In this document: one piece after another, positions 1,964 to 63,741 of the stretch | Layout: every line of letters starts with the position of its first letter | Position numbering within the stretch: the first letter of the stretch is position 1 | Assembly (NCBI GenBank): GCA_965215005.1 | Contig: CBDCCZ010000003.1 | Location: 128,001-192,000 of the forward strand | Direction of reading: 5' to 3' | Origin: Kofleriaceae bacterium | Lineage (GTDB): Bacteria; Myxococcota_A; Polyangia; Haliangiales; Haliangiaceae | DNA length: 64,000 nucleotides | Translations under genes and position numbers: made by a program | Notes under the pieces: model-generated | What the model was told of the DNA's origin: nothing | Seen by the model: only the letters and a program-made list of their open reading frames with translations | Databases searched by the model: none

Positions 1964-2106
1964 GTAGCGGCTCACGACGGACGCTACAAACCAAAAATCG
2001 CTTGCGGGAGACGCCGAAGGGGGCGCGTGAGTAGCAGAAATCTGCCGACCTTGCCCCGCATCGGGGCGACGGATTTCTGCGTCATCAATCCCGCGGCGGC
2101 GTACTA
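1964..2106 (-). repeat. 150-bp palindromic element, copy 1 (inverted, short deletion in the terminal hairpin)
   Basis: Reverse complement TAGTACGCCGCCGCGGGATTGATGACGCAGAAATCCGTCGCCCCGATGCGGGGCAAGG... matches the copies at 15822, 57473 and 60543. Confidence 0.92.
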
Positions 2107-9909: not shown

Positions 9910-10611
9910 TCAATCGCCTTTATCGCGCCGCTTGTCGCGGACTCGGGACTTGTCGCGCCCACCGCGGTGATCACGCGGAGCCGGTTGGCTTGCGGGTGCT
10001 CGCTGCTGGCGAGTGGCCGGCGGCGGCGCGCGATGATCGCGAGACCCTGGCGCGCGATGATCGCGAGACGCTGGCGCGCGATGATCGCGAGACGCTGGCG
10101 GCGATGCGCGATGGTCGCGAGACCCTGGCGCGCGATGGTCGCGAGACCCTGGCGCGCGATGGTCGCGGGACGCTGGCGCGCGATGATCGCGAGACGCTGG
10201 CGGCGACCGGTGATCCCGCACCGCCGGACCACGCTGACGATCAACCGATCGGCCGCGATCGTTGCGCCGATGGTCACGCACCGCCGGCCCGCGCTGCACG
10301 CTCCCGCGACCACGATAGCGGACATAGGTCCGCGGATTGTCGACGCGCCGAACCGCGACCGGCACCGAGCGCGCGCGGGTCCACCCGCCGTAATGCACGC
10401 TCGAGCGATACCAAAGGCCGTTGTGGTACCTCCAGTAATAGCTATCCGAGTAGAAAACCGGCTCGTCGTGGTCGTAAACCACCTGAACGCCCGGGCGAAC
10501 GTACACCAGCTCCGGCGCTGTCGAGCGCGCGCGGACTTGACCGCGGACGACGCAACCGCTGGTGAGGGCGGCGGTTGCGAGGACAAACGTAATCAAAAGA
10601 ATTCGTCTCAT
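9910..10611 (-). CDS. Lipoprotein with Trp/Tyr-rich domain and RDHR repeats
   Basis: Lipobox LTSGC; PELVYVRPGVQVV...EPVFYSDSYYWRY..GLWYRS; tandem (A/G)SRDHRAP. Confidence 0.85.
   Translation of the reverse strand: MRRILLITFVLATAALTSGCVVRGQVRARSTAPELVYVRPGVQVVYDHDEPVFYSDSYYWRYHNGLWYRSSVHYGGWTRARSVPVAVRRVDNPRTYVRYRGRGSVQRGPAVRDHRRNDRGRSVDRQRGPAVRDHRSPPASRDHRAPASRDHRAPGSRDHRAPGSRDHRASPPASRDHRAPASRDHRAPGSRDHRAPPPATRQQRAPASQPAPRDHRGGRDKSRVRDKRRDKGD
10025..10222 (-). repeat. Coding 24-bp tandem repeat (xSRDHRAP, about 7 copies)
   Basis: GGCGCGCGAT(G/A)ATCGCGAGAC(G/C)CT-type units repeated head to tail on the plus strand. Confidence 0.95.
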
Positions 10612-15712: not shown

Positions 15713-15821
15713 GCGCCGACGGTGCCGCATCGGTTGCCGATTCGCAAGGCTTGCACCTCGCACACAGCGGCGTGGCTTCGACATGTGCACCCGCCAAGTA
15801 GGTTCACAGTCGCCGTGAACA

Positions 15822-15969
15822 TAGGAGCCGCGGGATTCGTGACGCACAAATCCGCCGCCCCGATGCGGGGCAAGGACGGCAGATTTCTGCTACTCACACG
15901 CCCCTTCGGCGTCTCCCCAAGCGATTGGGGCGTTTCTAGGGGTTCACGACGTCCGCCGTGAGCCCCTAG
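15822..15969 (+). repeat. 150-bp palindromic element, copy 2
   Basis: GCCGCGGGATTCGTGACGCACAAATCCGCCGCCCCGATGCGGGGCAAGG...GTGAGCCCCTAG; preceded by an extra terminal-hairpin remnant at 15798-15824. Confidence 0.92.
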
Positions 15970-16049
15970 GAGCTGGCGAGTTTCGAGTATCATTCGCCCC
16001 GATCGGTTTTTCTAGGTCGTCTTTGTTGTCGCCTCCGCCGCCACCTGTC

Positions 16050-57187: not shown

Positions 57188-57314
57188 GCGGTCTTGAATA
57201 AGGGAGGCGACCGAGGCACCTTCGCGCGTGTCTTCACTTGCGGGGTCTTGCTCTTCGGCGCGATGACGGCCGCGTGCGTTGCCGTTGTCACTCCCATAGC
57301 GCGGAGGCGACCGT

Positions 57315-57469
57315 GGGGCTATGGACATGCCGGGGCGAGGACAAGTCCTATCCGCTCCGCGGTGCCCTATGCACAGCTCGCCTTCGGCCACCTGCGCATA
57401 GGACAATGAACTTGCCCACGCCTCTTGGACAACCCTCCTTCGTCGGGTTGCCCACCTGCCCACAGCCCC
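57315..57469. repeat. Second palindromic (MITE/IS-end-like) element
   Basis: Terminal inverted repeats GGGGCTATGGACA / TGCCCACAGCCCC with internal hairpins. Confidence 0.6.
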
Positions 57470-57472
57470 GAG

Positions 57473-57625
57473 TAGTACGCCGCCGCGGGATTGATGACGC
57501 AGAAATCCGCCGCCCCGATGCGGGGCAAGGGCGGCAGATTTCTGCTGCTCAGGCGCCCCGTTCGGCGTCTCCCCAAGCGATTGTTGTTTTTCTAGCGGTT
57601 CACGACTTCCGCCGTGAACCACTAG
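57473..57625 (+). repeat. 150-bp palindromic element, copy 3
   Basis: TAGTACGCCGCC...GTGAACCACTAG; TAG to TAG spacing 150 bp; 7 mismatches to copy 4 by eye. Confidence 0.95.
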
Positions 57626-57830
57626 CCCTTTAAATGGGAACACAACAAGAACGCGAACCGCATGCGTGACGAGACCAACACTTGGCTCACCGCCGGCGGG
57701 AATGCTTGTTCACCGGCAAGGGGCAATTAAGCCGGATCACCCGAAGGTGCTCCGAGAGGAGTTGCAGTCCATCTGATGCTGGGCGTCGAGCCAGCCGGTC
57801 TACCTCTCGCATCGCTTTGCGGGGGAAGTC

Positions 57831-57911
57831 TCTCGCCTGGCGCAGGCTTGCATCTGGCATTCTGCGTCTGGCGCAGGTCTGCGTCTCGCGCAGGTCCGCC
57901 TCCAGCGCGAG
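57831..57911 (+). repeat. 17-bp mini-palindrome tandem array upstream of the transposase
   Basis: TCTGCGTCTGGCGCAGG and TCTGCGTCTCGCGCAGG plus degenerate flanking units. Confidence 0.7.
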
Positions 57912-58057
57912 CACGCGCCGCAGAGCGCAAGTACTCGCCTGGCGCGGCCGGTCCTTCTCGCCAGTGCCGATGCCCGCGCTGGGTCTGCACCTCTGGGCGC
58001 CGGCCGCGCCGGGGGCAAACTGTCAGACGCGCGTGAGAGATTGTCTGCCGATTGAAG

Positions 58058-58717
58058 ATGGTGGGCACGAAGTTCAAAGTGAAGACTCGGAGGAAGCGAC
58101 ACCGGCAGGAAGCGTTCGCGTTTCGCACCTGGGGTGGCAAGCGCGAGGGTGCTGGGCGCAAGCCGACGGGCAAGCGCGCCGGGGTGTCCCACGCGCCGCG
58201 TGCGCGCATTCGCCGCACGACGCCGGTGCACGTCACGCTTCGCATGGCGCCGCATGTCTACAATCTGCGCAGCAGGCGGTCGTTCCGGGTCATTCAGCAG
58301 GCGTTGTTTGCGGCTAGCAATCGCCTAGGCACCAAGATTCTCGAGTTCTCGGTGCAGGGCAACCACGTGCATCTGCTCGCCGAGACGCAGGACGACGCTG
58401 CGCTCTCCCGAGCGATGAAGGGCTTGTCGGTGCGCCTCGCTCGGGGCCTCAACAAGATGATGGGCAAGCGCGGCCGGGTGCTCGGCGACCGCTACCACGC
58501 TCACGTGCTGCGGACGCCCACCGAGGTGGTGCGCGTCCGCGCTTACATCAAGCGCAACTACCGCAAGCACGCCGCCGAGCGCGGGCACAAGCTGCCCGCG
58601 GGCTTCGTAGATCCATATTCGTCGTCGGCGCCCGGAATGCGCCGCAGGCTCGGGCTACCGGCGCCTGGCTGGCTCGCGAGCCACGGCGCCTCCGCCACGG
58701 CAGAAAACACGACGTGA
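58058..58717 (+). mobile_element. HUH Y1 transposase (IS200-like / REP-associated RAYT-like)
   Basis: PVHVTLR, FSVQGNHVHLL (HUH), DRYHAHVL, YIKRN..KH (catalytic Tyr) and DPYSS motifs. Confidence 0.88.
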
Positions 58718-58748
58718 CAGCTCGTCGCCTCGCTACGCTAACATCGTT

Positions 58749-61610
58749 TCACAGCGGCGCTGCGTCATCGAGCGGTACGTCGACCACCAGCCGGGTGCCT
58801 ATGCCCGGGCTCGAGCCGATGCGCGCGGTACCGCCGAGCTCCTCCGCTGCGAGCTTGATGGCATCCATCCCTACGCCGCGCCCGGAAATGGTCGAGACGC
58901 GCTCAGCCGTCGAAAAGCCGGGCAAGAACAACAGCTCGTCGATTTGGGTGTCAATGAGCTGGGTTGCATGCGCGGGGTCGACCAGGCCTTTATCGATGGC
59001 GCGCCGGCGGACGCGGTCGCGGTCGATGCCGCGGCCATCGTCGCCCACGGTGACGCGCAACCGTTCGTCGTCGACCTCGAGCTGCACGCGCACGATGCCG
59101 CGCTCGGGCTTGCCTTGGCGAACGCGGTCGGCTGGATCTTCGAGGCCGTGATCGATGGCGTTGCGAACCGCATGCAAGAGAATCTCGCCGAGCTTGCGCA
59201 GGCGGCTCTCTTCCACTAGTGGTGATGCTCCCTCGAACCGCAACTCGACCGGCTTACCGAGCTCTTCGCCTAAGTCGGTCGCCAGCGAGCCCAGGCGATC
59301 CGCGAGTCCACGAACGGGAACACACGTGAGCCCCCGGACCGCACGACGCAGGCGTCCATACGCTTCGTGAAGCTCGTCAGATAACGCGCGTCCCGCGCCG
59401 GTCAACGCGTCCAGCGAGGCCATCTCGGTTTGCACCAACGCCGCGCGTTCGGCTGCCGAGTGGCCAACGCCTGCTTGCGCCGCGGGCCGCACGGTGAACG
59501 CGCTGGCATCGCGAAACAGTCGCTCCAAGCGAGCCGAGGCCAGAGAGGTGCCCGCGCTCAAGGTCTGCCGCAGCGTGAGGATGCCGAGCGACTCGGCCTC
59601 GGTGGCCAGCTCTTCGAGCACGTTGACGAGCGGCGGCGGCGCGCTGGCGACGCGATCGATGGCGCGCTCGAGAAACAGTCGGCCATCGGCGCTGCGCACC
59701 TCGACCATGAAGGATTGGTAGAGGCGAAGCTGCTCGTCGAGCTCGGTGAGCCACGCCTCGACCCGGGCGGTGATACTGCGTTGCGGTCGCTCTGCGCGCA
59801 TCGCGTCGTCGAGCAGCTCGTGCAGCTCGCGGGCGTGAGCGCTCAAAGCCGGAAAGCGATAGCGTCGCGCGCATGCGGCGTAGCTATGGGCAAGCTCGTA
59901 GATACGCGCCAGTGCGCTCTTATCGCGCAGCCGCGTGCTCCAGCGCTCATACCCCCGCTGCATCTGCGAGAGCAGCTTACGCGCTTCGTCGTGAAAGCTC
60001 GCTAGGGCATCGACCACGCGCTCTTGCGGCGCGAGCGGAGCAATGGCTCGGGCGGCGTCGAGAAGCTCGAGAAGCTCGACCACCAGATAGTCATCGGGAC
60101 CGGCAACGCACGCCTCGACGTCAAAGACCATCTGCATGGCTGCTTGCGCGGCAACTCTTACGCTCTCGATAGCAAAGCTCTCTGCTGCACTTCGGGCGGC
60201 GTCGATCGCTCTGAGCAGCGCGCACATCACCAGTGGGTCTTCGCGTCGTTCGCACCAGCGATCGTGGCTTCGATCGATCTCGCTGGCGATCACCGCGCAC
60301 TCGGCGACGAAGTGCTCGGGCAAGTCCGAGCGGCCGAGCTCCGCCACTAGCGTGGTGACCCGAGCGAGCTCCTGCTCTAGGAGCGCCAGCGCTTCGGCGC
60401 GCGCCAGCGGATCGTGCAAGCTCTCCACCACCGGCACCGCAGCGCGGTGTAGCGCTCCTAGCGGCCGCACCCCGGCGGCATCGATGGCGCGCAGCAACTC
60501 GCGCCCAACGCGCTCGAGCTGACCAGCGTCGGTCGAGGCGGCTAGTACGCCGCCGCGGGATGGATGACGCAGAAATCCGCCGCCCCGATGCGGGGCAAGG
60601 GCGGCAGATTTCTGCTGCTCACCGCCCCCCTTCGGCGTCTCCCCAAGCGATTGTTGTGTTTCTAGCGGTTCACGACTTCCGCCGTGAACCACTAGGTGGC
60701 GGCAGGCGTCGACGGCTGCGATGACGCGAGCTAGCGAATCACGTCGCTGGGGCGCGTCCACCTCGGCAGAGCGGCTGAACTGCGCCGCCTCGCCGATCAG
60801 GTCGCGCAGACCGCCGATCAAGCTGCGAATGCGCGCGATCTGCTCGGGGGTGAGCGGCTCACGAGCGGCGCGCATCGGCTCGAGCTCATCTTCCGCGCTA
60901 TGCGCTGCTGCTTGCAAAGCATCGAGGTGAACCGCCCGCGCGTTGCCTTTGAGGGTATGAATGGCGCGAAAGATTTTGTGCACGGCGTGGCGCGCGGACG
61001 GGTCGGTTTGCAGGCGATCGGCCGCGGCGCTGCACTCGGTGAGAAGCCCCTGCGCTTCGGCGCGAAAGGTCTCGACGGCCACGGGATCCACGGCGGGTGC
61101 CGTCTGCGCCCGTGGCACCGAGGTCTGCTCGGAGGCGGGCACGGCCTCGGCTAGTCGTGCAAACATGAGCACGCGCACCAGCGCGCCGTCTTCATAAATA
61201 GGAGCATAGTCGAGCGCGAGCTCGGTACCGCCAGCGTCGGCGCGGCGCGGTGCTTCGTCGAGTTGCAGTGACCAGCCTTCGGAATCCGTTCCGGAGACGC
61301 ATGCGAGCCAGAGCGTCCACATGGCGGCAACGTCGGAGTCTTCTGAGACGCCGAGCGCATCGTGGAGCAAACAGCCGCGGCTCTGCTGCGCAGGCACGGC
61401 GGCGAGATTGGAGTGCAGGGTTTCGACCTCACCCGAGGTTGCATCGAACAGCACCACCACCCCGGGAAACTGCGCGAGCATCAGCTGCCCTAGCTCTGGC
61501 GCCGGCTCATGCACCGACTCGGCGATCGGCTCGATGACCTGACTTCCCATGGGCTCGTCGGCGAGCGGGAAGCTGCCGGTGCGGCGCTTCTTGAAGAATC
61601 CGCTAATCAT
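58749..61610 (-). CDS. CheA-like histidine kinase with several HPt-like bundles, no CheW domain
   Basis: FRAIHTLKG (HPt), HAVRNAIDHGLE, DDGRGID, LFLPGFSTA..VSTISGRGVGMD; ends right after the ATPase domain; carries a 50-aa repeat-derived insert. Confidence 0.9.
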   Translation of the reverse strand: MISGFFKKRRTGSFPLADEPMGSQVIEPIAESVHEPAPELGQLMLAQFPGVVVLFDATSGEVETLHSNLAAVPAQQSRGCLLHDALGVSEDSDVAAMWTLWLACVSGTDSEGWSLQLDEAPRRADAGGTELALDYAPIYEDGALVRVLMFARLAEAVPASEQTSVPRAQTAPAVDPVAVETFRAEAQGLLTECSAAADRLQTDPSARHAVHKIFRAIHTLKGNARAVHLDALQAAAHSAEDELEPMRAAREPLTPEQIARIRSLIGGLRDLIGEAAQFSRSAEVDAPQRRDSLARVIAAVDACRHLVVHGGSREPLETQQSLGETPKGGGEQQKSAALAPHRGGGFLRHPSRGGVLAASTDAGQLERVGRELLRAIDAAGVRPLGALHRAAVPVVESLHDPLARAEALALLEQELARVTTLVAELGRSDLPEHFVAECAVIASEIDRSHDRWCERREDPLVMCALLRAIDAARSAAESFAIESVRVAAQAAMQMVFDVEACVAGPDDYLVVELLELLDAARAIAPLAPQERVVDALASFHDEARKLLSQMQRGYERWSTRLRDKSALARIYELAHSYAACARRYRFPALSAHARELHELLDDAMRAERPQRSITARVEAWLTELDEQLRLYQSFMVEVRSADGRLFLERAIDRVASAPPPLVNVLEELATEAESLGILTLRQTLSAGTSLASARLERLFRDASAFTVRPAAQAGVGHSAAERAALVQTEMASLDALTGAGRALSDELHEAYGRLRRAVRGLTCVPVRGLADRLGSLATDLGEELGKPVELRFEGASPLVEESRLRKLGEILLHAVRNAIDHGLEDPADRVRQGKPERGIVRVQLEVDDERLRVTVGDDGRGIDRDRVRRRAIDKGLVDPAHATQLIDTQIDELLFLPGFSTAERVSTISGRGVGMDAIKLAAEELGGTARIGSSPGIGTRLVVDVPLDDAAPL
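60543..60695 (+). repeat. 150-bp palindromic element, copy 4 (in frame inside the CheA-like gene)
   Basis: CTAG at 60542-60545 and at 60692-60695, exactly 150 bp apart. Confidence 0.96.
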
Positions 61611-62089
61611 TCGCCCTCGATGATGCGCACGCCGATGAGAATCTTCAGAACTCCGGCGCTGGTGTCGAGCGAGACTACGAGAACCTGCTCGGTCAAGCTG
61701 CGATCTTCGATCGAGCCACTGTGAATTCGCGGCGGTAAAATCTCTACTTCATAGCCAGCATCGAGGAGCAGTCCCGTTGCATTGCCGGTGATGATGTTGG
61801 CGAGCTCGCTCACCACGTCGTCGCAAACTGCTTGCTCGAGCGCATCCATCGCGTCGATGGCCATCATCTTGGTGGCAAACAGTCGCGCGAGCTCTTCGCT
61901 GAATACCCACGTGATCGGCCCCGCTAGGCGACCCGTCATCTCCACGGTGCACACCAGGCTCGGCGGCGGATCGATCGCTCGGGTGATGCTGAGCCCGGCC
62001 GGCTGCACATCGATGCCGATGAACGTCTTGATGACGTCGACGACTGGATCGACGAAGGCATTGACGACCTGTGCATTGATGTTAGCCAT
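61607..62089 (-). CDS. cheX: Chemotaxis phosphatase CheX family
   Basis: INAQVVNAF, SELANIITGNA (ExxN) and ILPP motifs. Confidence 0.85.
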   Translation of the reverse strand: MANINAQVVNAFVDPVVDVIKTFIGIDVQPAGLSITRAIDPPPSLVCTVEMTGRLAGPITWVFSEELARLFATKMMAIDAMDALEQAVCDDVVSELANIITGNATGLLLDAGYEVEILPPRIHSGSIEDRSLTEQVLVVSLDTSAGVLKILIGVRIIEGE

Positions 62090-62100
62090 CGCCCGCGCCC

Positions 62101-63741
62101 TCATCCTCGGGTAACGCGCATAACCTCGCGCGCGGAGGTAATGCCAGCAATGAGCTTCTTGAGCGCCTGGAACCGCATCGGCTTGAAGCCTTCACTTAAC
62201 GCATGCTCGCGGATCGCCTCGGTGGTGGCACCGCGCGAGATGAGCGCGCGCAGCGGCTCCGTCACTTCGAGTAGCTCACGCACCGCGGTCCGGCCCGAGT
62301 AGCCGGTATCGTTGCAGCGAAAGCAGCCACGCCCGCGCTTGAAGCGAATTTCGGGTGGCAGGTTCTGCAGCCCCAGCGCTTCACGCTCCTGCAGCGACGG
62401 CTCGTACTCTTCTACGCAGCCGGTGCAGACCTTGCGCAACAGCCGCTGCGCGATGACGCCTACCATGGATGGCGCGACGAGATACGGCTGCACGCCCATT
62501 TCCGTGAGCCGGGTAATCGCGCCGGGCGCATCGTTGGTGTGCAGCGACGCCAGCACGAGATGGCCCGTGAGCGCCGCTTCTGAAGCGATGACTCCAGTCT
62601 CGTGGTCGCGAATCTCGCCGATGAGAATCACGTCGGGGTCCTGGCGCAGGATCGAGCGCAGCGCCCCCGCGAAGCTCAGGCCGCGTTTGACATTGACCTG
62701 CACCTGATTGATGCCGGGCAGCTGATACTCGATGGGATCTTCGACCGAGACGATGTTGATGTCGGGCGCTCGAACCGTGTTGAGCGCGCCGTAGAGGGTG
62801 GTGCTCTTGCCACTACCGGTCGGCCCCGTGACCAAGAGCAGCCCGTATGGCGCCGTCACCATGGTCTGAAAGATCTCGAGCTGCTTCTTGTCGAATCCGA
62901 GGTCCTCGAGCGGCAAGAGGGCTTTCTTGCTGTCGAGGATGCGCATGCAGACCTTCTCACCCCAATAGGTGGGAAGAACGGAGACGCGCAGATCGATCTC
63001 GCCCTCCGCGCGCCGCATCTTGATACGGCCGTCTTGCGGCACGTAGCGCACCGAGATGTCGAGCTCCGCGAGCACCTTGATGCGCGAAACGATCGCCGGA
63101 TGCAGCTCGGCGGGGCGCGTGTCGACGTGGCGCAATCCACCATCGACGCGATAGCGGGTGACGGTCTCTTTCTCGCTGGCCTCGATGTGAATGTCGCTAG
63201 CGCCCGCTTCAACAGCGCCTGCAATGAGTCGATCGACGATTTGAGTCGCTTCTAAGAGCGCCTCTTGCGTGACGTCGACCTCTTCTTCCACGGCCACGAT
63301 CTTGGTCGCTGGCTCGTCATACAGGCGACGAATCGCGCGATCAATCTCCAGCGGCGAAGCCAAGAGAATCGAGACGCTGCGCTTGAGCTCGGCCCCAATC
63401 CAGTCAAAGACCTCGAGCTGGGTCGGGTCTGCGGTGGCGATGGAGACCTCGCTGCCGTCGAGATAGGTGGGCACCAAGCGATGGCGTTCCGCTAGATGCC
63501 GCGGCAACAGAGTCGCGAGCTCGACGGCAATCTCGACACCATCGAGCTCGAGGCGCGCTACGTTGAAGCGCCGAGCCACCACCTCGAGCAGATCATCGAC
63601 GCTGGCGAAACCTGCAGCCGACAAACTGGCCTCGGAGAGGCGGCGCTGCTTGAGCAGCTCGAGCGCGGCGCGGTCGCGATTGGCTGCTGCGGTCGGTGCT
63701 GGCGTCGAGGCCTTCGCAGTGCCGGAAAACCGCAGGTTCAA
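62101..63741 (-). CDS. GspE/PilB family secretion/pilus ATPase
   Basis: ASDIHIE, PQDGRI, GPTGSGKSTT, EDPIEY, LRQDPDVILIGEIRD and tetracysteine CTGC...CFRC. Confidence 0.96.
   Translation of the reverse strand: MNLRFSGTAKASTPAPTAAANRDRAALELLKQRRLSEASLSAAGFASVDDLLEVVARRFNVARLELDGVEIAVELATLLPRHLAERHRLVPTYLDGSEVSIATADPTQLEVFDWIGAELKRSVSILLASPLEIDRAIRRLYDEPATKIVAVEEEVDVTQEALLEATQIVDRLIAGAVEAGASDIHIEASEKETVTRYRVDGGLRHVDTRPAELHPAIVSRIKVLAELDISVRYVPQDGRIKMRRAEGEIDLRVSVLPTYWGEKVCMRILDSKKALLPLEDLGFDKKQLEIFQTMVTAPYGLLLVTGPTGSGKSTTLYGALNTVRAPDINIVSVEDPIEYQLPGINQVQVNVKRGLSFAGALRSILRQDPDVILIGEIRDHETGVIASEAALTGHLVLASLHTNDAPGAITRLTEMGVQPYLVAPSMVGVIAQRLLRKVCTGCVEEYEPSLQEREALGLQNLPPEIRFKRGRGCFRCNDTGYSGRTAVRELLEVTEPLRALISRGATTEAIREHALSEGFKPMRFQALKKLIAGITSAREVMRVTRG

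What the first reader, a model, noticed from the sequence alone, without database searches (positions are those of the whole stretch)
60542..60695. Palindromic repeat inserted in frame into a CheA-like kinase (RPE-like protein insert)
Seen: the repeat sits between two CTAGs exactly 150 bp apart and adds 50 residues (VVHGGSREPLETQQSLGETPKGGGEQQKSAALAPHRGGGFLRHPSRGGVL) without breaking the 953-aa ORF. Removing it restores ...VDACRHLAASTDAGQLE.... The intergenic copy at 57473 has the same open frame and length, so the element is intrinsically coding-compatible in this orientation. Established: Rickettsia palindromic elements insert in frame into proteins. Inference: an analogous selfish element that creates new peptide segments in a probable myxobacterium.
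Basis: partly seen in the sequence, partly recalled or inferred. Interest (0 to 1): 0.85.

Follow-up and report, generated by a model that had tools for sequence, protein, structure and literature searches.

The report
Mobile palindromic repeat inserted in-frame in kinase
A 150-base mobile palindromic repeat, present in about 160 places in this genome, has landed inside a CheA-like kinase gene and adds a 50-residue loop without breaking it, a kind of event already known from Rickettsia and other bacteria.

Summary
Window 60546-60695 is a 150-nt repeat copy bounded by CTAG (60542-60545 and 60692-60695). It lies inside the 953-aa ORF 58749-61610 (minus strand) and adds residues 307-356 without a stop.

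The repeat belongs to a genome-wide family: 159 nhmmer hits, 71 of them full length. It inserts at YTAG sites and leaves a TA(G) direct repeat. Three relatives of the kinase carry no counterpart of the segment. Independent contigs of a public run run from unique flank into the repeat on both sides. AlphaFold2 predicts a disordered loop between two helices, 37 residues after the Hpt domain.

Other genes carry the same peptide in frame. A Ser/Thr kinase has exactly 50 extra residues compared with its neighbouring paralogue. A TonB-dependent receptor, a HAD hydrolase and a GNAT acetyltransferase are probable cases.

The "coding compatibility" has a simple explanation. The length is a multiple of three, and about 85% of coding-like CTAG sites are read CTA|G. 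In that phase the consensus has no stop in either orientation, which is roughly what chance gives at 65% GC. The frame used in the kinase is not preserved in intergenic copies.

The mobilising enzyme is unresolved: an IS630-family IS or a Y1 transposase.

Verdict: real, and a new member of a known kind.

The parts
60542..60545 (.). CTAG target tetranucleotide on the low-coordinate side of the insert; read as CTA|G (Leu356 + first base of Ala357) on the minus strand
60546..60695 (+). 150-nt copy of the dispersed palindromic repeat (TACGCC...CACTAG), antisense to the host gene; encodes residues 307-356 of the kinase
60547..60638 (+). long imperfect hairpin ('body') of the repeat; coordinates transferred from the fold of the 57473 copy (positions 5-96)
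60662..60695 (+). 3' hairpin bounded by CTAG on both sides (CTAG-CGGTTCACG...CGTGAACCA-CTAG); this module is conserved in another genus (G016) and also occurs alone
58749..61610 (-). host gene: CheA-like kinase, 953 aa (Hpt 179-269, HATPase_c 806-948; no CheW-like or dimerisation domain detected by Pfam)
57476..57625 (+). intergenic copy of the repeat, preceded by GTAG; it is an insertion into a sequence that has two element-free paralogues (C46:6255-6400, C40:56092-56231)
1982..2106 (-). partial copy of the repeat (positions 1-125)
15818..15970 (+). diverged copy of the repeat
58052..58717 (+). IS200-like Y1 (HUH) transposase gene, one of 5 copies in the genome; candidate mobilising enzyme, link not shown
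61607..62104 (-). CheX-like gene directly upstream of the kinase (context)
62101..63741 (-). T2SSE/GspE-like ATPase gene (context); the same neighbour stands beside the kinase relatives in G032 and G014

Best explanation
Window 60546-60695 is a copy of a non-autonomous, strongly self-complementary mobile repeat about 150 nt long. The repeat consists of a palindromic body of about 100 nt joined to a roughly 50-nt tail that ends in a CTAG-bounded hairpin.

The family inserts at YTAG sites, mostly CTAG, and leaves TA(G) repeated at both borders. The net gain is 150 bp. In the CheA-like kinase gene it entered a CTAG that is read CTA|G, in a helical linker 37 residues after the Hpt domain, and it lies antisense to the gene. 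The length is 3n and that frame of the element has no stop, so the ORF reads through and gains a 50-residue loop rich in Gly, Ser, Pro, Arg and Gln that is predicted to be disordered.

Shown here: the insertion, its borders, the lack of a counterpart in relatives, and further in-frame copies in other genes.

Inferred: the kinase remains functional and the peptide is a tolerated passenger. Survival of genic copies then reflects filtering. The TAG inside CTAG cannot be in frame within an ORF, about 85% of coding-like CTAG sites are in the CTA|G phase, and the element is stop-free in that phase in both orientations.

Not resolved: which enzyme moves the element. My estimates are about 0.4 for the IS630-family transposase of the 1515-bp IS in the same genome, about 0.25 for the IS200-like Y1 transposase, and the remainder for something else.
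For: Repeat family. blastn gives 112 hits. nhmmer gives 159 hits: 71 full, 53 right parts, 27 left parts and 8 internal. 31 of the 71 full copies are exactly 150 nt.

Borders. The left flank is mostly CTAG or TTAG and the right end is CACTAG. Two element-free paralogues of the intergenic site show a clean 150-nt insertion: filled AGTAG[el]CTAG against empty GCTGG. Head-to-tail arrays share the CTAG.

Structure. Folding energy is -40.7 kcal/mol (z -4.3) on the + strand and -47.7 kcal/mol (z -6.3) on the - strand, and 0 of 200 shuffles reach these values. One stem pair shows a compensated change, CG in 35 copies and TA in 11.

Host gene. The ORF is intact with Hpt and HATPase_c domains. The relatives G032:C48, G014:C97 and P0002 are 34-38% identical in the 12-sequence alignment. 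G032:C48 and G014:C97 have the same T2SSE neighbour. All three are shorter at the site. Among 41 genomes, the only matches listed that fall on residues 277-395 alone lie in G000's own repeat copies.

Assembly. A 2033-nt contig covers 60000-60592 and a 6547-nt contig covers 60666-61200, each with 0 differences and depth about 5.5-5.9. No joint skips the element.

Fold. pLDDT is below 50 for residues 312-359, which are coil between helices 286-309 and 362-379.

Other in-frame copies.
- Ser/Thr kinase at C14:124875-127598: the adjacent paralogue matches residues 28-492 and 543-904 with contiguous subject coordinates, so it lacks exactly 50 aa.
- TonB-dependent receptor: a signal-peptide-like N-terminus lies upstream of the element and the Plug domain downstream.
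- HAD hydrolase and GNAT acetyltransferase.

Frames and phases. 2 of 6 frames are open. Of the 2029 coding-like CTAG sites assigned a single phase, 1726 are read CTA|G.

Candidate enzyme. The 1515-bp IS630-family IS is flanked by CTAG on both sides. The element's left end matches the IS terminal repeat at 16 of 26 positions, whereas the non-element, non-IS CTAG|TA 26-mers reach at most 13. The reference list of PMC2170065 cites a 1991 paper whose title states that IS630 prefers the TA within CTAG.
Against: - The relatives are only 34-38% identical and the linker is poorly conserved. Absence is therefore shown by length and lack of similarity, not by a base-precise empty site.
- No genome of the same genus is held, and no RNA run holds the stretch, so expression and function of the kinase are untested.
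- Contigs cannot exclude a rare allele without the insert.
- The AlphaFold2 model rests on 12 sequences (mean pLDDT 69.8), and low confidence over an orphan insert is expected in any case.
- GNAT: no homologue was found in 25 relatives. HAD: homologues align only up to the insert, residues 14-164. These two cases are unproven.
- Enzyme: the 150-nt unit has no terminal inverted repeat (9 of 26). The IS630-like transposase was not found in G016, which has the related element. The Y1 family occurs in 46 of 61 genomes against 2 of 61 for the element. The conserved unit of the Y1 genes shares no ends with the element.
Confidence: 0.85

Rival explanations
1. The gene is already dead or dying. The insertion inactivated the kinase and the ORF is open only because the event is recent.
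For: The copy is young: 95-96% identical to the intergenic copy. No expression data exist. Roughly 6 of 71 full copies have a coding-like frame spanning the site after removal in silico, against about 32% of CTAG sites passing a similar but not identical test. That suggests most genic insertions are selected against.
Against: The 953-aa frame is intact. The Hpt and HATPase_c domains score well above the Pfam cut-offs. Nearly invariant kinase residues are present in the 12-sequence alignment. The insert falls in a poorly conserved linker, predicted as coil between helices. Five different genes keep read-through copies, including an older one (94% identical, with both CTAGs mutated) in a Ser/Thr kinase that is still open.
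Confidence: 0.1
2. Assembly artefact: the repeat was placed in the gene by a mis-join at a repeated sequence in a metagenome assembly.
For: The genome is a 62-contig draft and the source run is a metagenome with low depth of about 5.5. Repeats of this size break short-read graphs, and no single contig spans the whole element.
Against: Contigs of an independent assembly run from unique flank into the element on both sides with 0 differences, by 50 nt on one side and 30 nt on the other, one short of the tool's 31-letter bridging rule. The two flanks encode colinear parts of one protein when compared with its relatives. The same architecture is seen in a second gene compared with its paralogue.
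Confidence: 0.03
3. The segment is an ancestral linker of this kinase family, and the genomic repeats derive from it or resemble it by chance.
For: The linker after Hpt varies in length among relatives.
Against: 71 full-length copies have unrelated flanks, most of them outside coding-like frames. Similarity ends exactly at CTAG on both sides. Element-free paralogous sites exist for two other copies. No relative carries the peptide.
Confidence: 0.02
4. The element is moved by the IS200-like Y1 (HUH) transposases, as REP/REPIN elements are moved by RAYTs. It would insert as single-stranded DNA 3' of a YTAG, with no true duplication.
For: The 150-nt unit has no terminal inverted repeats. It has strong hairpins with a tetranucleotide at the foot. 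Solo hairpins and a roughly 50-nt mini-element without inverted ends occur on their own. The 3' hairpin is conserved in G016 while the body differs. The genome has five Y1 genes, one of them 430 nt from the intergenic copy. The best NCBIfam hit is the REP-associated tyrosine transposase model.
Against: That hit scores 33.9 bits against a cut-off of 80. The conserved unit of the Y1 genes (about 720-780 nt) has no element-like ends. The nearby copy is a secondary insertion that is absent from paralogous loci. Only this one of the five Y1 genes has a copy within 1 kb. The Y1 family is in 46 of 61 genomes and the element in 2 of 61.
Confidence: 0.25
5. The inserted peptide has been co-opted: it provides a functional loop or regulatory site in the kinase and the other host proteins.
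For: The same peptide sits in several signalling or envelope proteins. The + strand frame is open in 25 of 26 non-genic 150-nt copies against 21.4 expected, with 2.9% of simulations reaching 25.
Against: The frame actually used in five of the six genic copies is open in 18 of 26 non-genic copies against 18.7 expected. The peptide is predicted to be disordered. The host proteins are unrelated and the insertion sites are linkers or termini.
Confidence: 0.05

Closest known systems
Rickettsia palindromic elements (RPEs)
   Same: Palindromic repeats of about 150 bp found in frame inside unrelated protein-coding genes, each family encoding a conserved peptide. Source: review PMC10969869 and PMC3733652, passages read.
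   Different: The host is a free-living-sized 6.2-Mb, 65% GC genome of the Deltaproteobacteria/Myxococcota type, not a reduced intracellular alphaproteobacterium. PMC3733652 reports RPEs as CGTC-tagged, whereas this element is bounded by CTAG and targets YTAG. No sequence comparison with RPEs was made here.
Intragenic REP sequences (GTAG- and CGTC-tagged palindromes) and RAYT/REPIN systems
   Same: A hairpin with a conserved tetranucleotide at its foot, present as single, paired and clustered copies, with some copies inside genes adding 20-30 residues (PMC3733652, passages). A Y1 transposase family is present in the genome.
   Different: The tetranucleotide is CTAG on both sides of the hairpin. 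The mobile unit is 150 nt and composite. The Y1 genes are multi-copy and not flanked by the repeat, unlike REPtrons.
IS630/Tc1-mariner-derived MITEs
   Same: TA duplication within a CTAG target. IS630's preference is stated in the title of Tenzen & Ohtsubo 1991, seen in the reference list of PMC2170065; TA duplication is described in passages of the same paper. An IS630-family IS with CTAG flanks is in the same genome, and the element's left end resembles its terminal repeat at 16 of 26 positions.
   Different: The right end has no matching inverted repeat (9 of 26). The related element in G016 occurs where this transposase was not found.
Other bacterial small repeats found in ORFs (ERIC/RU elements, Coxiella QMITE1, MITEPsy1)
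   Same: Small non-autonomous repeats that sometimes lie inside genes and create in-frame fusions (PMC10969869 passages; PMC2759123 and PMC5896051 from search listing and abstract only). MITEPsy1 inserts after CTAG or YTAA (PMC3189936 passage).
   Different: Those elements have terminal inverted repeats and belong to other sequence families and other phyla.

Membership tests
Rickettsia palindromic elements (RPE) | Palindromic repeat of about 100-150 bp, dispersed in the genome | tested here: met
Rickettsia palindromic elements (RPE) | Copies inserted in frame in functional protein-coding genes | tested here: met
   two firm cases; probable cases
Rickettsia palindromic elements (RPE) | Sequence relationship to an RPE family, or the CGTC tag reported for RPEs | not tested
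   No RPE sequence was compared. The tag here is CTAG. Rfam gave only a sub-threshold microRNA match, 33 bits against a gathering score of 100. I do not file this as an RPE.
Classical MITE | Terminal inverted repeats at both ends of the mobile unit | tested here: not met
   Left end against the reverse complement of the right end: 9 of 26. Only the inner body of about 100 nt has inverted arms.
Classical MITE | Short direct repeat of the target at both borders | tested here: met
   TA(G) at both borders; an element-free paralogue has the same length once 150 nt are removed
Classical MITE | A parent IS in the genome with matching ends | tested here: inconclusive
   IS630-family IS: same CTAG target, left-end similarity of 16 of 26, no right-end match; not found in G016
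REP/REPIN with RAYT | RAYT gene flanked by the repeats (REPtron) | tested here: not met
   The conserved unit of the five Y1 genes has no element ends. The one nearby copy is a secondary insertion.
REP/REPIN with RAYT | The transposase scores as a RAYT | tested here: not met
   NF047646 scores 33.9 bits against a cut-off of 80; Pfam Y1_Tnp scores 31.2 bits against a cut-off of 23
REP/REPIN with RAYT | Short palindrome with a conserved tetranucleotide at its foot | tested here: met
   CTAG rather than GTAG on both sides of the 3' hairpin; compensated stem change, CG in 35 copies and TA in 11
CheA histidine kinase (host gene) | Hpt (P1) and HATPase_c (P4) domains | tested here: met
CheA histidine kinase (host gene) | Dimerisation (P3) and CheW-like (P5) domains | tested here: not met
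   Pfam did not detect them. NCBIfam CheA models match only residues 745-948, far below their cut-offs. The protein is CheA-like, not a canonical CheA.

The most novel reading that the evidence does not exclude
The family may be adapted to live in coding DNA. Its target, CTAG, can occur in ORFs in only two phases, and about 85% of coding-like CTAG sites are read CTA|G. The unit is exactly 3n long and is stop-free in that phase in both orientations. Under this reading, most insertions into genes would be read through, which would make the element a systematic source of new disordered loops in signalling and envelope proteins of a large-genome, free-living bacterium of the Deltaproteobacteria/Myxococcota type.
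Probability: 0.2. Interest if true: 0.6.

Novelty: new member of a known kind. Interest (0 to 1): 0.4.

Why it matters
It extends repeat-made protein segments, best known from Rickettsia, to an uncultured large-genome lineage. It also gives a concrete and testable reason why such insertions keep the frame: target phase, a length of 3n, and no stops in that phase. The several host proteins offer natural experiments on how much extra loop a kinase linker, an AAA-type domain or a receptor linker can tolerate. It does not open a new class of system.

Tried and rejected
- Rfam scan of 57300-60900: only a sub-threshold microRNA match.
- Exact 47-mer of the body hairpin in genome contigs: 0 matches.
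- Earlier findings of this scan: nothing by place or by sequence.
- TnpB/omega-RNA idea: no PF07282 match in the genome. IS5-type idea: no PF01609 match.
- Co-occurrence tests were uninformative or negative. The Y1 family is in 46 of 61 genomes. The IS630-like transposase is in 11 of 61 and was not found in G016.
- No left end and right end enclosing a transposase gene was found among neighbouring hits within 6 kb.
- RNA evidence: no RNA holder listed. Contigs show no allele without the insert, which does not prove absence.
- GNAT homologues: none in 25 relatives at E <= 1e-8.
- A 4-bp CTAG duplication was rejected, because copies with a left flank of TTAG or GTAG still end in CTAG.
- Three copies might disrupt genes or lie in ambiguous frames (C6:36291, C42:259286, C44:122538). 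I did not resolve them.
- I did not search for an empty-site allele by typing the joined flanks, because joined sequence may not be typed.
- Idea not tested: CTAG-bounded modules shuffled by cutting and ligation at C^TAG rather than by a transposase.
Full report
**1. The observation**

CTAG occupies 60542-60545 and 60692-60695. The repeat proper, from TACGCC to CACTAG, is 60546-60695 (150 nt). The intergenic copy is 57476-57625, also 150 nt, and is preceded by GTAG.

The two copies are 95% identical, and similarity stops at the borders. The window holds two more copies, at 1982-2106 (minus strand, partial) and 15818-15970 (diverged).

ORF 58749..61610 on the minus strand is open for 953 aa. 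The repeat supplies residues 307-356. Leu306 and Leu356 are the two CTA codons of the flanking CTAGs.

**2. A genome-wide family**

The window is C3:128001-192000 of a 6.21-Mb, 62-contig, 65% GC genome.

- blastn finds 112 matches.
- A profile of 48 near-full copies finds 159: 71 full length, 53 right parts, 27 left parts and 8 internal.
- 31 of the 71 full copies are exactly 150 nt.
- Left flanks are mostly CTAG or TTAG, and right ends are CACTAG.
- Copies whose left flank is TTAG or GTAG still end in CTAG. What is repeated at the borders is therefore TA or TAG, not four bases.
- Head-to-tail pairs, and a 3.5-unit array at C38:43186-43714, share the CTAG between units.

An internal control is available for the intergenic copy. 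The sequence around it has paralogues at C46:6255-6400 and C40:56092-56231 that lack the element. The filled site reads AGTAG[150 nt ending CTAG]CCC, and the empty site reads GCTGGCCC.

**3. Anatomy of the element**

Both strands fold far better than shuffled controls: -40.7 kcal/mol (z -4.3) and -47.7 kcal/mol (z -6.3). Positions 5-96 form one long imperfect hairpin. Positions 120-153 form a second hairpin whose stem begins and ends with CTAG.

One stem pair shows a compensated change, CG in 35 copies and TA in 11. This may be a single inherited event.

The unit looks composite.
- 40 of 113 hits to the 3' hairpin have no body within 200 bp, and 34 of 98 body hits have no 3' hairpin within 200 bp.
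- A mini-element of about 50 nt, bounded by CTAG, occurs alone at several loci.

Among 61 genomes of the same family, only G000 has the full element. G016, from another genus, has 12 matches to the 3' module only. These belong to a 149-nt unit with the same architecture but a different body.

No Rfam family fits.

**4. Is the insert real and derived?**

No genome of the same genus is held. Three relatives of the kinase were found: G032:C48, G014:C97 and the metagenomic protein P0002. They are 34-38% identical in the 12-sequence alignment. G032:C48 and G014:C97 have the same T2SSE ATPase neighbour.

All three are shorter at the site and show no similarity to the peptide. With the 50 residues removed in silico, the flanks align to two of them without a large gap. 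Across 41 genomes, the only matches listed that fall on residues 277-395 alone were G000's own repeat copies.

This linker is poorly conserved, so absence is shown by length and lack of similarity rather than by a base-precise empty site.

One public run (X1) holds the stretch. A 2033-nt contig covers 60000-60592 and a 6547-nt contig covers 60666-61200. Each has 0 differences and a depth of about 5.5-5.9. No joint skips the element. The second contig reaches 30 nt into the element, one short of the tool's 31-letter bridging rule. The run may be the sample the genome was assembled from.

The two flanks encode colinear parts of one protein, which argues against a mis-join.

**5. Context in the protein**

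Pfam finds Hpt (179-269) and HATPase_c (806-948), but no dimerisation or CheW-like domain. NCBIfam CheA models match only the catalytic part. The protein is therefore CheA-like rather than a canonical CheA. A CheX-like gene lies directly upstream.

The AlphaFold2 model uses 12 sequences and has a mean pLDDT of 69.8. It gives confident helices for Hpt. Residues 312-359 are coil with pLDDT below 50, lying between helices 286-309 and 362-379. Low confidence over an orphan insert is expected, so this supports a loop but does not prove one.

**6. Other genes with the same peptide**

*Firm case.* The Ser/Thr kinase with an AAA_16 domain is at C14:124875-127598 (908 aa). Its neighbouring paralogue matches residues 28-492 and 543-904 with adjoining subject coordinates, so it lacks exactly 50 residues. 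Both CTAGs of this older copy have mutated, and the frame is still open.

*Probable cases.*
- A TonB-dependent receptor. A signal-peptide-like N-terminus lies upstream of the element (my reading of the sequence, not tested by a tool). Pro/Ala-rich linker lies on both sides, and the Plug domain is downstream.
- A HAD hydrolase. Homologues align only to residues 14-164, up to the insert.
- A GNAT acetyltransferase. No homologue was found in 25 relatives.

*Unclear cases.*
- A 442-aa ORF without a Pfam family holds a partial copy in the other orientation.
- An 883-aa open frame at C44:133332-135983 has a copy at residues 28-79, just before a lipoprotein-like signal.

Five of the six genic copies are antisense to the gene, as in the kinase. 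The numbers are too small to call this a bias.

**7. Why the frame is kept**

The consensus is open in 2 of 6 frames. These are the two in which the flanking CTAG is read CTA|G, one on each strand. At 65% GC a random 50-codon frame is open with probability of about 0.28 (my arithmetic). Two open frames of six is therefore about what chance gives, and both CTA|G-phase frames being open has a chance of about 0.08.

CTAG is rare in this genome: 6730 sites against 19942 expected from base frequencies. Of the 2029 sites outside the repeats that lie in a single coding-like frame, 1726 are in the CTA|G phase and 303 in the xCT|AGx phase. A further 83 of the 6535 sites were ambiguous and 4423 were unclear. 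The test itself passes only 1309 of 3000 random positions, so it is insensitive.

Most insertions into genic CTAG sites would therefore be read through, because the length is 3n.

Selection does not appear to maintain the frame used in the kinase. In 26 non-genic 150-nt copies it is open in 18, against 18.7 expected under random substitution. The other frame is open in 25 against 21.4 expected, and 2.9% of simulations reach 25.

Genic copies are few. About 6 of 71 have a coding-like frame spanning the site after removal, while about 32% of CTAG sites pass a similar but not identical test. This fits selection against most genic insertions.

**8. What moves it**

*Candidate A: an IS630-family IS.* It is 1515 bp, with terminal repeats beginning TACCCGGCCACAG and CTAG on both sides. 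Three copies plus fragments are present, and one has an intact 400-aa transposase. Two copies sit exactly on the terminal CTAG of an element copy or of a solo hairpin.

The element's left end matches the IS terminal repeat at 16 of 26 positions. Among 101 CTAG|TA 26-mers in the genome, those that are neither element copies nor IS copies reach at most 13. IS630-family elements duplicate TA (PMC2170065, passages), and the preference of IS630 for TA within CTAG is stated in a title in that paper's reference list.

Against this candidate, the 150-nt unit has no right-end inverted repeat (9 of 26), and the transposase was not found in G016.

*Candidate B: the IS200-like Y1 transposases.* There are five copies, 86-92% identical at the DNA level, and one lies at 58052-58717 next to the intergenic copy. 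In favour are the hairpins with a tetranucleotide at the foot, the asymmetric ends and the solo hairpins.

Against this candidate, the conserved unit of these genes shares no ends with the element, and the nearby copy is a secondary insertion. The family is in 46 of 61 genomes against 2 of 61 for the element. The RAYT model scores below its cut-off.

TnpB and IS5-type transposases were not found. I rate candidate A at about 0.4, candidate B at about 0.25 and something else for the rest.

**9. Comparison with what is known**

In-frame palindromic repeats are documented for Rickettsia RPEs. They are also documented for GTAG- and CGTC-tagged REPs in several other bacteria, including Opitutus terrae, Thioalkalivibrio and Xanthomonas (passages of PMC10969869 and PMC3733652). 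ERIC/RU elements and Coxiella MITEs are further examples, seen only in the search listing and abstracts.

A search for Myxococc* together with the MITE term returned 6 papers. By title and abstract start, none of the 5 listed deals with such an element. The element works like an RPE or an intragenic REP, but I do not file it in either family: the tag is CTAG, the unit is composite, and no sequence relationship was tested.

**10. Verdict**

This is a new member of a known kind and of moderate interest.

Noticed in passing
window 10001-10230: Array of at least 7 tandem units with a period of 24 nt (one spacing of 30), GC-rich (GGCGCGCGATGATCGCGAGAC...).
   Followed up: no
G000 C6:55896-57405 and onward, C14:184023-185537, C21:67494-69000: A 1515-bp IS630-family IS with CTAG on both sides. 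Two copies are inserted exactly at the terminal CTAG of a repeat copy or a solo hairpin, and C6 holds two IS copies head to tail. Only the C14 copy has an intact 400-aa transposase.
   Followed up: partly
window 58052-58717 and G000 C25, C17, C4, C46: Five copies (86-92% DNA identity) of an IS200-like Y1 transposase gene unit of about 720-780 nt. The family has up to 54 matches per genome in 46 of 61 related genomes.
   Followed up: partly
G000 C38:43186-43714: Head-to-tail array of 3.5 units of the repeat with a period of 151 nt. Shorter pairs occur at C9:91183-91474, C23:18849-19151, C46:21135-21438 and C4:150770-151044.
   Followed up: partly
G000 C44:133332-135983: An 883-aa open frame with a repeat copy at residues ~28-79, immediately before a lipoprotein-like signal sequence. 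The element may supply or displace the start of the gene.
   Followed up: no
G000 C3:117878-117930, C3:91026-91078, C38:79082-79134, C12:144124-144177: A mini-element of about 50 nt (CTAG, a T-rich spacer, then the CTAG-bounded hairpin) occurs alone. This suggests the 150-nt unit arose by joining a palindromic body to this mini-element.
   Followed up: partly
L026 (G016:C284) 1322-1548: A genome of another genus has a 149-nt repeat with the same architecture and a nearly identical 3' hairpin but a different body. There are 12 matches in that genome.
   Followed up: partly
whole genome G000: CTAG is about three-fold under-represented: 6730 observed against 19942 expected from base frequencies.
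   Followed up: no
G000 C6:36291-36428, C42:259286-259437, C44:122538-122689: Repeat copies where removing the element in silico gives a coding-like frame across the site but the present sequence is not open. These may be disrupted genes or chance.
   Followed up: no
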